Source: Magnetococcus sp. DMHC-6 (GTDB lineage Bacteria; Pseudomonadota; Magnetococcia; Magnetococcales; JADFZT01). Taken from it: DNA of 64,000 nt. Position numbers and translations under genes: made by a program. Positions 9,539-9,880 of this stretch are shown one piece after another. Position 1 is the first letter of the stretch; the number at the start of each line of letters is the position of its first letter. Where the stretch lies: positions 10,705 to 74,704 of the forward strand of contig JAMOAW010000027.1 of NCBI GenBank assembly GCA_039908535.1, read 5' to 3'. The notes below the pieces were generated by a model that did no database searches, was not told the DNA's origin, and worked only from the letters and a program-made list of their open reading frames with translations.

Positions 9539-9880
9539 GTATCAGAATGACAAAAATCAAGACCTTGGGGGGCTAAGAACCGCCTCCCAAGCCCTCCCCC
9601 TTTTTTTTAGGGGGGGGATTCTTGATTTGTTGCCCGATGCGGTACCACCACACTTAACCGTGGTGTCTGTTTTTTGATTTTATTATTTAAAAAAAAAGGG
9701 GGCTGGGGGATTGCCCCCAGGGTTTTGCGTTTGATTTTTCTTTTGACCTCGGTTTTGCTTCCTTCAAAAAGCAGGGGGATTGGGGGGATGCAATCCCCCA
9801 AGGTCTTGACTTTGCTTTTTGTTCAGGCACTCGTTAATCGTCCACACTTAAATGTGGTGGTACCCCCGATGCATCATGTT
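9539..9880. repeat. Hairpin-repeat locus R5 (A + degenerate B + F module interrupted by a nested TIR element)
   Basis: gtatcagaatgacaaaaatcaagaccttggggggctaagaaccgcctcccaag... The F module ttgcccgatgc/atcatgttg is split by the 224-bp element at 9641-9864. Confidence 0.9.
9641..9864. mobile_element. MITE-like non-autonomous element with terminal inverted repeats and an 8-bp target-site duplication
   Basis: Left end GGTACCACCACACTTAACCGTGG. Right end (reverse complement) GGTACCACCACATTTAAGTGTGG. Flanked by direct CCCGATGC at 9633-9640 and 9865-9872. No ORF inside. The interior carries the C'-D-E hairpin modules. Confidence 0.8.

What the first reader, a model, noticed from the sequence alone, without database searches (positions are those of the whole stretch)
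9633..9872. Nested 224-bp TIR element with a perfect 8-bp target-site duplication inside another repeat module
The F module normally reads ttgcccgaagggcatcatgttcg. In R5 it reads ttgCCCGATGC [GGTACCACCACACTTAACCGTGG ... CCACACTTAAATGTGGTGGTACC] CCCGATGCatcatgttg. The bracketed 224 bp (9641-9864) has ~23-bp terminal inverted repeats that match at about 20 positions. It is flanked by direct CCCGATGC copies at 9633-9640 and 9865-9872. Removing the element and one CCCGATGC copy restores an F-like module. This is a textbook cut-and-paste insertion footprint of a non-autonomous DDE-type element (MITE). It shows that the repeat arrays grew by successive insertions into one another. The MITE interior itself carries the C'-D-E hairpin modules, so two different mobilisation signatures (hairpin-bounded and TIR-bounded) are combined in one mosaic.
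Basis: seen in the sequence. Interest (0 to 1): 0.85.

Follow-up and report, generated by a model that had tools for sequence, protein, structure and literature searches.

The report
IS1-like MITE nested in repeat array
A 224-bp non-coding "hitch-hiker" transposon (a MITE) of an IS1-like insertion-sequence family has jumped into an intergenic repeat downstream of a flagellin gene in a magnetotactic coccus. It is a clean but ordinary example of a known kind of mobile DNA.

Summary
Window 9641-9864 is a 224-bp non-coding unit with 23-bp terminal inverted repeats (20/23). It is flanked by a perfect 8-bp direct repeat, CCCGATGC, and splits a degenerate F module. It lies between a flagellin gene and a convergent inositol-monophosphatase gene of Magnetococcus sp. 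DMHC-6.

The same termini (GGTAsCACCACAyTTAAnnGTGG) bound two other kinds of element:
- 100-223-bp non-coding elements in two other Magnetococcales MAGs and in metagenomes.
- 1.24-1.28-kb elements encoding a single 373-aa transposase with an N-terminal Cys4 finger and invariant D-D-E. Its best profile match is IS1.

Five further family members carry perfect 8-bp duplications at exactly these boundaries, one of them on a Deinococcus plasmid. The element is therefore a MITE of an IS1-like family, presumably mobilised in trans. The window encodes no such transposase.

The interior (9689-9814) copies a resident G5/C5-hairpin repeat that also occurs without the inverted repeats at 22630-22750 and 7163-7291(-). 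A decayed second copy lies at 39834-40026.

- A duplication does not prove cut-and-paste.
- "Hairpin-bounded mobilisation" has no evidence.
- One nested insertion does not show how the arrays grew.

Verdict: new member of a known kind, modest interest.

The parts
9633..9640 (.). Left copy of the 8-bp target-site duplication, CCCGATGC.
9641..9864 (+). The 224-bp MITE, with no credible ORF.
   Evidence: tblastn with the family transposase finds nothing in the window.
9641..9663 (+). Left TIR, GGTACCACCACACTTAACCGTGG. It matches the family consensus and contains a CCAC-N8-GTGG mini-palindrome.
   Evidence: The hairpin was flagged.
9689..9814 (+). Interior segment.
   Evidence: Alignment A1.
9842..9864 (-). 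Right TIR. Its reverse complement is GGTACCACCACATTTAAGTGTGG, with 3 mismatches to the left TIR.
9865..9872 (.). Right copy of the 8-bp target-site duplication, CCCGATGC.
9546..9632 (+). Host repeat array R5 upstream of the insertion. It comprises the A module, a collapsed C module and the start of the F-like module (TTG at 9630-9632).
9873..9881 (+). Remainder of the split F-like module, ATCATGTTG.
9892..9918 (.). Bidirectional terminator-like hairpin plus T-run between the convergent flagellin (8691-9536, +) and inositol monophosphatase (9942-10763, -) genes. The MITE lies between the flagellin stop codon and this hairpin.
39834..40026 (+). Second, decayed copy of the same composite MITE. 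The left TIR is GGCACC..., there is a 25-bp internal deletion, the right TIR is truncated after CCACACTTAAA, and there is no TSD. It is 91% identical to copy a over aligned columns. It fills the gap between the convergent hybrid histidine kinase and csrA genes.
22630..22750 (+). TIR-less copy of the interior repeat, attached to an A module.
7163..7291 (-). TIR-less copy of the interior repeat in inverted orientation.
   Evidence: I1-I3.

Best explanation
[quoted passage not shown] Its 23-26-bp termini are the recognition ends of a widespread single-ORF, IS1-like DDE insertion-sequence lineage: about 1.25 kb, a 373-aa transposase, and ends GGTAsCACCACAyTTAAnnGTGG.

Inferred mechanism:
- A transposase of this lineage, encoded elsewhere in the Magnetococcus sp. 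DMHC-6 genome or present in it in the past, bound the two TIRs.
- It synapsed them and joined the element's 3' ends to target DNA cut with an 8-bp stagger at CCCGATGC. The target lay in an already degenerate F module, 104 bp downstream of a flagellin gene.
- Gap repair produced the 8-bp duplication.

The element is a composite. Only about 45 bp at each end is element-specific. The middle 126 bp is a copy of a resident G5/C5-hairpin intergenic repeat. The composite was formed once and then propagated, because a second copy with the same junctions lies at 39834.

Shown:
- the anatomy;
- shared termini with transposase-encoding elements;
- the 8-bp duplication as a family property;
- no coding capacity;
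- the interior repeat existing independently.

Inferred:
- trans-mobilisation in this genome;
- the binding and cleavage chemistry;
- the order of events that built the composite.

Whether transposition is cut-and-paste or copy-out/replicative is not determined.
For: 1. Anatomy and chance. The expectation for TIR plus 8/8 TSD is 1.4e-6.

2. The same termini occur elsewhere.
- Two other Magnetococcales MAGs carry them: L001 (100 bp) and L002 (223 bp).
- Eight metagenome contigs carry them.
- These include a 185-bp MITE family (L005, L007, L008) and two 1,237-bp and 1,256-bp elements (L006, L009).

3. The long elements encode 373-374-aa proteins.
- The best NCBIfam hit is IS1 transposase NF033558, E 2.9e-11, plus the IS1/IS1595 Zn domain.
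- D120, D179 and E260 are invariant, as are four N-terminal Cys.
- The IERxNATFRQRL motif aligns to IERHNLNLRQHL of E. coli IS1A InsB.
- Relatives at about 30% identity (26-30%) in Acaryochloris and Gloeothece plasmids are annotated 'IS1 family transposase'.
- The top Foldseek hits of a moderate model are DDE transposases and integrases.
- More than 7,700 homologues exist.

4. Perfect 8-bp duplications lie at exactly the GGTA...TACC boundaries in five other members:
- L008, ATGAGCGG;
- L016, GACCTCGA;
- L019, CATCCTTA;
- L025, CGCCGGGC;
- the 42%-identical Deinococcus wulumuqiensis pDrdI copy, GGGCGACG.
The probability of at least 5 of 15 by chance is 2.5e-21.

5. No ORF of note lies inside the element, and no transposase homologue lies in the window.

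6. The interior is shared with TIR-less copies, and a second copy has identical junctions.
Against: - No autonomous copy could be shown in the same genome. Only this 64-kb window of the MAG was available, and it has none.
- Most other family members examined lack a TSD: L001, L002, L003, L005, L007, L006, L009, L017, L021 and most P0114-type copies. Many of these are short metagenomic contigs whose flanks are demonstrably unreliable. L023 and L024 share one flank but not the other. IS1-family copies without direct repeats are documented (ISDge2: 9 copies with an 8-bp DR and 6 with none; PMC8369957).
- The transposase scores below NCBIfam's curated IS1 cutoff (43.7 bits against 100) and has no Pfam hit, so the family assignment is distant.
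- The structure model is only moderate (pLDDT 66.6), and no fold match reaches E <= 0.001.
- The restored site is F-like, not a perfect F module.
Confidence: 0.9

Rival explanations
1. REP/REPIN-like doublet. Two inverted copies of a small palindromic unit (each terminus is itself a CCAC-N8-GTGG hairpin) are spread by a RAYT-type (Y1/HUH) transposase as single-stranded DNA.
For: - Each terminus forms a short hairpin.
- The unit sits in extragenic space among other palindromic repeats.
- The whole unit folds better than shuffles, z = -4.25.
Against: - REPINs do not make target-site duplications (PMC3116915). Here a perfect 8-bp TSD is present, and it recurs in five other family members.
- Elements bounded by these termini encode a DDE-type, IS1-like protein, not a RAYT.
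Confidence: 0.02
2. Not a propagating MITE. Two solo IS ends, or a one-off internal deletion of a full-length IS, happen to bracket a resident repeat. The unit never moved as such.
For: - Similarity to the full-length IS is limited to about 26 bp at each end.
- The interior is host repeat DNA.
- Only two copies are seen, and one is decayed.
Against: - The perfect 8-bp TSD lies directly outside both TIRs of the 224-bp unit, so the unit inserted as one piece.
- The second copy at 39834 shares the same TIR-interior junctions at a different locus, so the composite was copied after it formed.
Confidence: 0.05
3. Coincidence or a MAG assembly artefact. The inverted and direct repeats arise by chance in repeat-rich, low-complexity intergenic DNA, or through mis-joining of repeat copies during assembly.
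For: - The source is a metagenome-assembled genome.
- The region is dense in repeats.
- Flanks of related IS copies in short metagenomic contigs are sometimes chimeric.
Against: - The chance expectation is 1.4e-6.
- The TIR is not low-complexity and matches, base for base, ends found in unrelated samples.
- An assembly error would not create a precise 8-bp duplication at the exact ends used by the family.
Confidence: 0.02

Closest known systems
IS1 family insertion sequences (E. coli IS1A; Deinococcus ISDge2; single-ORF IS1-family elements annotated in Acaryochloris and Gloeothece)
   Same: - Termini begin GGT(A). The real IS1A ends, read, are GGTGATGCTGCCGAACTTACTGAT and GGTAATGACTCCAACTTATTGAT.
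- The TSD is 8-9 bp (8 bp for ISDge2; PMC8369957).
- There is an N-terminal zinc finger, and a DDE core with the IERxNxxxRQxL signature.
- The right IR lies directly after the stop codon.
- Copies with and without direct repeats coexist.
   Different: - The partner IS has one uninterrupted 373-aa ORF and is about 1.25 kb. IS1 is 768 bp with insA/insB and a -1 frameshift.
- The score is below NCBIfam's IS1 cutoff, there is no Pfam hit, and hhalign to InsB aligns only the E motif.
- The TIR carries a CCAC-N8-GTGG mini-palindrome.
Bacterial MITEs such as Nezha (cyanobacteria), Chunjie (Geobacter), Correia (Neisseria) and RUP (S. pneumoniae), as reviewed in PMC3184786
   Same: The element is small and non-coding, bounded by TIRs and flanked by direct repeats. 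It lies in intergenic DNA, and its TIRs resemble those of an IS that can supply transposase in trans.
   Different: - The parent family, TIR sequence and TSD length differ.
- The interior is not a deletion derivative of the IS. It is a captured copy of an unrelated resident hairpin repeat.
IS elements inserted in REP/BIME palindromes (IS1397, ISPpu9/ISPpu10 and others; Tobes & Pareja 2006, PMC1525189)
   Same: - A transposable element is nested inside an extragenic palindromic repeat module.
- A sub-lineage of the same IS family (P0114-type) is likewise found repeatedly inside a roughly 95-bp palindromic host repeat.
   Different: - No target specificity is demonstrated. Three of six reconstructed empty sites are unstructured.
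- Those REP-targeting IS belong to the IS3 and IS110 families.
REPINs / RAYT system (Bertels & Rainey 2011, PMC3116915)
   Same: Two inverted hairpin-forming units are separated by a spacer, and the element is extragenic and repeated.
   Different: REPINs have no TSD and are tied to a Y1 transposase. Here there is an 8-bp TSD and a DDE-type partner.

Membership tests
MITE (bacterial miniature inverted-repeat transposable element) | Small size (tens to a few hundred bp). | tested here: met
   224 bp.
MITE (bacterial miniature inverted-repeat transposable element) | No transposase or other coding capacity. | tested here: met
   Only short, boundary-crossing, low-complexity ORFs are present. tblastn with the family transposase finds nothing.
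MITE (bacterial miniature inverted-repeat transposable element) | Terminal inverted repeats. | tested here: met
   23 nt, 20/23 complementary (I10).
MITE (bacterial miniature inverted-repeat transposable element) | Target-site duplication of the length made by the parent IS. | tested here: met
   The window has an 8-bp CCCGATGC duplication. Perfect 8-bp TSDs are also found in L008, L016, L019, L025 and L018.
MITE (bacterial miniature inverted-repeat transposable element) | TIRs shared with an autonomous IS. | tested here: met
   L006, L009, L011, L012 and L019 are 1.24-1.26 kb, have the same ends and encode a transposase. Presence of such an IS in the same genome could not be tested.
MITE (bacterial miniature inverted-repeat transposable element) | Multiple copies in the host genome. 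| tested here: inconclusive
   There are two copies in 64 kb, one of them decayed.
IS1 family (for the autonomous partner) | Transposase matches the curated IS1 profile above threshold. | tested here: not met
   NF033558 is the best hit, but at 43.7 and 36 bits against a cutoff of 100. There is no Pfam hit. This makes it a distant relative, not a member by the curated test.
IS1 family (for the autonomous partner) | N-terminal zinc finger plus DDE catalytic core with the IS1-type E-region motif. | tested here: met
   - C8, C13, C36, C39, D120, D179 and E260 are invariant in 44 sequences.
- The E motif aligns to IS1A InsB, E 6.6e-4.
- The NF050000 Zn domain scores E 0.0019, below its cutoff.
IS1 family (for the autonomous partner) | Ends starting GGT, and an 8-9-bp TSD. 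| tested here: met
IS1 family (for the autonomous partner) | Two ORFs (insA/insB) joined by a programmed -1 frameshift (classical IS1). | tested here: not met
   The ORF is single and uninterrupted, 373-374 aa. From my own knowledge of ISfinder's classification, not tested here, single-ORF subgroups of the IS1 family are recognised.
REP/REPIN-RAYT | No target-site duplication, and association with a Y1 (HUH) RAYT gene. | tested here: not met
   A perfect TSD is present. Elements with these ends encode a DDE-like protein.
IS200/IS605-derived palindrome-associated elements | Subterminal hairpins without TIRs and without a TSD. | tested here: not met
   TIRs and a TSD are present.

The most novel reading that the evidence does not exclude
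The partner lineage would be an uncatalogued, very abundant sub-family related to IS1. Its features are a single 373-aa ORF, ends GGTAsCACCACAyTTAAnnGTGG with a CCAC-N8-GTGG core, and more than 7,700 protein clusters, mostly in uncultivated bacteria.

Its MITEs would pick up resident terminator-like hairpin modules and re-insert them, sometimes into other palindromic repeats. This would make them one real engine behind the mosaic G5/C5 repeat arrays of Magnetococcus sp. DMHC-6, and behind similar IS-in-palindrome nests seen in vent metagenomes.
Probability: 0.15. Interest if true: 0.45.

Novelty: new member of a known kind. Interest (0 to 1): 0.25.

Why it matters
- **Repeat-array history.** The element is a dated, directional marker in an otherwise opaque repeat landscape. 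It proves at least one true transposition into a pre-existing array, and at least one capture of a resident repeat by a mobile element.
- **Link to a poorly annotated IS lineage.** It connects three Magnetococcales MAGs to a large IS1-like lineage. Most members are labelled 'hypothetical' or 'transposase-like'. The ends and 8-bp duplication are now defined from data, which helps annotate such elements in MAGs.
- **Limits.** It changes nothing about how MITEs are thought to work.

Tried and rejected
- **Exact-sequence look-ups.** Look-ups of two window proteins found nothing. The organism was identified instead by homology: 100% identity to Magnetococcus sp. DMHC-6.
- **Profile and RNA searches.** Pfam gave no hit for the transposase. 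Rfam found nothing meaningful at 9400-10000.
- **Comparison with E. coli InsB.** hhalign aligned only the 27-residue E motif, probability 27%.
- **Structure.** The AlphaFold model was moderate (pLDDT 66.6) and Foldseek gave no hit at E <= 0.001. The DDE transposase and integrase top hits are only suggestive.
- **Target preference for hairpins.** I tested whether the family prefers hairpin targets. Reconstructed empty sites gave z = -7.6 (window), -2.8 (L025) and -1.6 (L008), but about 0 for L016, L019 and L018, so there is no general preference.
- **Automatic alignment of arrays.** MAFFT mis-placed the R5 F remnant against the C module, so a manual alignment was used.
- **Literature.** Searches for Magnetococcus + MITE, ISMhu11, and IS1-family MITEs returned nothing useful.
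- **Other TIR-like matches.** The weak TIR-like matches at 5346(-) and 51195(+) lie inside ORFs, have 3 or more mismatches and are taken as chance.
- **TSD around the interior.** No TSD was found around the interior repeat. The T-rich junctions are uninformative.

Full report
**1. Observation**

- CCCGATGC lies at 9633-9640 and again at 9865-9872.
- Between the two copies is a 224-bp unit. It starts GGTACCACCACACTTAACCGTGG (9641-9663) and ends CCACACTTAAATGTGGTGGTACC (9842-9864).
- The repeat finder reports the pair as 23 nt, 87% complementary (I10).
- The 17-mer terminus occurs three times in the window at one mismatch or fewer, against 0.25 expected.
- CCCGATGC occurs only at these two places and at two unrelated coding positions.
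- A binomial estimate expects 0.09 inverted pairs of this quality within 2 kb in 64 kb. With an 8/8 flank match the expectation is 1.4e-6.

**2. Context**

The window comes from Magnetococcus sp. DMHC-6, a metagenome-assembled genome. The inositol monophosphatase at 9942-10763(-) is 100% identical to that MAG's protein, and the next relatives are Magnetococcales at 60% or less.

The element lies between two convergent genes.
- It is 104 bp downstream of the stop codon of a flagellin gene (8691-9536; Pfam Flagellin_N/C).
- It is about 25 bp upstream of a bidirectional terminator-like hairpin (9892-9918) shared with the phosphatase gene.

This intergenic space also holds one of about ten modular repeat arrays in the window. 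The motif AAGACCTTGGGGG occurs 14 times against 0.13 expected (families D7-D16).

Intact F modules read TTGCCCGAAGGGCATCATGTTCG or close variants, at 2318, 3862, 30838, 36316 and 48372. None contains CCCGATGC.

Deleting 9641-9872 gives TTGCCCGATGCATCATGTTG.
- This is recognisably F-like, but AGG is replaced by T.
- The neighbouring C module is also collapsed (plus manual alignment).
- The target was therefore an already degenerate array.

**3. What the termini belong to**

A scan of 185,579 species-representative genomes for GGYACCACCACAYTTAANNNTGG hit only two contigs. Both are Magnetococcales MAGs. Each carries a small non-coding element bounded by the same ends, but the interiors are unrelated: L001 is 100 bp and L002 is 223 bp.

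The metagenome scan gave eight contigs. In seven of them a second, inverted terminus lies 170-1,240 bp away.
- Three are copies of one 185-bp MITE (L005, L007, L008).
- Two are 1,237-bp and 1,256-bp elements (L006, L009). Each is filled by one 373-374-aa ORF, and the right TIR starts 2-3 nt after the stop codon.

The encoded protein has these properties:
- No Pfam hit.
- Its best NCBIfam match is the IS1 transposase model, E 2.9e-11 and 43.7 bits, below the curated 100-bit cutoff. There are weaker IS6, IS3 and IS1/IS1595 zinc-domain hits.
- In 44 homologues, four N-terminal cysteines and D120, D179 and E260 are invariant.
- The E-region TAYIERLNATFRQRLA aligns with TQRIERHNLNLRQHLA of genuine E. 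coli IS1A InsB.
- Relatives at about 30% identity (26-30%) on Acaryochloris and Gloeothece plasmids are annotated 'IS1 family transposase'.
- A moderate AlphaFold model (pLDDT 66.6) finds ISCth4 transposase and retroviral integrases first, but none at E <= 0.001.

The family is large, with more than 7,700 clusters at E <= 1e-5. Most sit on 1.2-1.5-kb contigs, as expected for a collapsed multi-copy IS.

**4. Is the 8-bp duplication a property of the family?**

Yes. Perfect 8/8 direct repeats lie at exactly the GGTA...TACC boundaries in these members:

| Locus | Element | TSD |
|---|---|---|
| L008 | MITE | ATGAGCGG |
| L016 | IS | GACCTCGA |
| L019 | IS | CATCCTTA |
| L025 | IS | CGCCGGGC |
| L018 (Deinococcus wulumuqiensis plasmid pDrdI) | IS | GGGCGACG |

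The Deinococcus copy has a transposase only 42% identical and ends GGTAGTACCACAGGACAGCGTGG.

L011 has a 10-bp direct repeat whose register is ambiguous.

The probability of at least five such matches among 15 elements by chance is 2.5e-21.

Many copies lack a duplication (L001-L003, L005-L007, L009, L017, L021). I do not count this against the model, for two reasons:
- Flanks in short metagenomic contigs are unreliable. L023 and L024 share one flank and differ in the other.
- IS1-family elements are documented with mixed populations. ISDge2 has 9 copies with an 8-bp DR and 6 with none (PMC8369957).

**5. The element is a composite**

Alignment A1 shows that 9689-9814 is about 90% identical to two copies that have no TIRs, at 22630-22750(+) and 7163-7291(-). 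The 22630 copy is joined to an ordinary A module. Only about 45 bp at each end of the 224-bp unit is specific to it.

A second copy at 39834-40026 has the same TIR-interior junctions and is 91% identical over aligned columns. It is decayed:
- The left end reads GGCACC.
- It has a 25-bp internal deletion.
- The right TIR is cut after CCACACTTAAA.
- It has no TSD.

This second copy starts 2 nt after the stop codon of a hybrid histidine kinase gene and fills the gap to a convergent csrA gene.

The composite therefore formed once and was then copied. I could not determine whether the resident repeat inserted into an older MITE or two ends came to flank a repeat. The T-rich junctions show no duplication.

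**6. Mechanism**

Best explanation (confidence 0.9): the element is a MITE mobilised in trans by an IS1-like DDE transposase that recognises the 23-26-bp ends. Those ends contain a conserved CCAC-N8-GTGG mini-palindrome. The transposase inserts with an 8-bp staggered target cut.

- Shown: the anatomy, the shared ends, the family-wide 8-bp duplication, the absence of coding capacity, and the absence of a transposase in the window.
- Inferred: a source of transposase in this genome, and the chemistry.

The duplication does not tell cut-and-paste from copy-out or replicative transposition, so 'textbook cut-and-paste footprint' is too strong.

**7. Rivals**

- **REPIN/RAYT.** Excluded by the TSDs and the DDE-type partner.
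- **IS200/IS605-type elements.** Excluded by the TIRs and TSD.
- **Chance or mis-assembly.** Excluded by the statistics and by base-for-base identity of the ends with unrelated samples.
- **One-off deletion derivative.** Made unlikely by the second copy with the same junctions.

**8. What was not supported**

- Nothing found here shows how the G5/C5 hairpin modules themselves spread. 'Hairpin-bounded mobilisation' remains a guess.
- One nested insertion does not establish that the arrays grew mainly by insertions into one another.
- A possible family preference for palindromic targets was tested and is not general. It had been suggested by the window and by a P0114-type sub-lineage that sits repeatedly inside a roughly 95-bp palindromic host repeat. 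Three of six reconstructed empty sites are unstructured.

**9. Comparison with known systems and verdict**

The element meets every testable MITE criterion. Genome-wide copy number could not be assessed.

Its partner IS works like, and is distantly related to, the IS1 family.
- Shared features: GGT(A) ends (real IS1A ends were read), an 8-9-bp TSD, a zinc finger, the DDE signature, and a right IR abutting the stop codon.
- Failed tests: it falls below the curated profile threshold, and it lacks the two-ORF frameshift organisation of classical IS1.

I therefore call the partner an IS1-like, single-ORF lineage rather than a proven IS1-family member.

No paper linking Magnetococcus to MITEs was found.

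Novelty: new member of a known kind. Interest: 0.25. It is a neat, well-supported example that helps annotation and repeat-array history, but it would not surprise a specialist.

Noticed in passing
window 905-1010, 2190-2345, 3640-3890, 7025-7296, 9546-9885, 22564-22750, 30712-30865, 36199-36420, 39834-40026, 48241-48600: - About ten intergenic arrays are built from a few G5/C5-hairpin modules. AAGACCTTGGGGG occurs 14 times against 0.13 expected.
- The A-C pair is itself a long imperfect palindrome: CCCCCC-Tn / An-GGGGG arms, 26 nt and 100% complementary at 7062-7114.
- Each half looks like an intrinsic terminator for one strand.
- None was found in 16 kb from two other Magnetococcales MAGs.
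- How these modules spread is unknown.
   Followed up: partly
L023-L032 (metagenome contigs carrying the P0114-type IS): - A 1,280-bp sub-lineage of the same IS family lies repeatedly inside a roughly 95-bp palindromic, terminator-like host repeat.
- L025 has an 8-bp TSD there.
- L028 and L030 instead have flanks that are perfect inverted copies of each other (40 and 33 nt) and no direct repeat.
- L023 and L024 share one flank only.
- The cause is unresolved: target preference, recombination between copies, or assembly chimeras.
   Followed up: partly
window 22628-23140 (-): The ORF of an S4-domain protein (Pfam S4 at residues 9-55) runs about 40 codons into the TIR-less repeat copy at 22630-22750 before reaching a stop. 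The repeat may have replaced or extended the gene's 3' end, or the ORF call may be too long.
   Followed up: no
window 7732-8577, 8691-9536, 15126-17627, 18603-19433 (also 69-914): There are several flagellin paralogues. Two are tandem 281-aa genes whose ends are 79-89% identical at DNA level, and one is an 833-aa ORF sharing the flagellin termini (D2/D3). Repeat arrays follow several of them.
   Followed up: no
L007 129-1075 and 1174-1358: A transposase remnant 32-34% identical to the family transposase, apparently frameshifted, lies about 100 bp from a copy of the 185-bp MITE that carries the consensus TIRs.
   Followed up: no
window 3600-3735 and 48395-48600: Two intergenic segments of about 130-200 bp are inverted copies of each other. 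Each carries additional hairpin modules (GGAGGCAGAGCCTCC, CCGGGGAGCGTGACGCTCCCCGG) and an F-variant (CCCATAGGCGTGATGTTTACGAC).
   Followed up: no
window 61340-63036, 26676-27041, 54615-54858: Tandem or periodic direct repeats with periods of about 420/276 bp, 54/21 bp and 21/108 bp appear; I did not check whether they lie within coding sequence.
   Followed up: no
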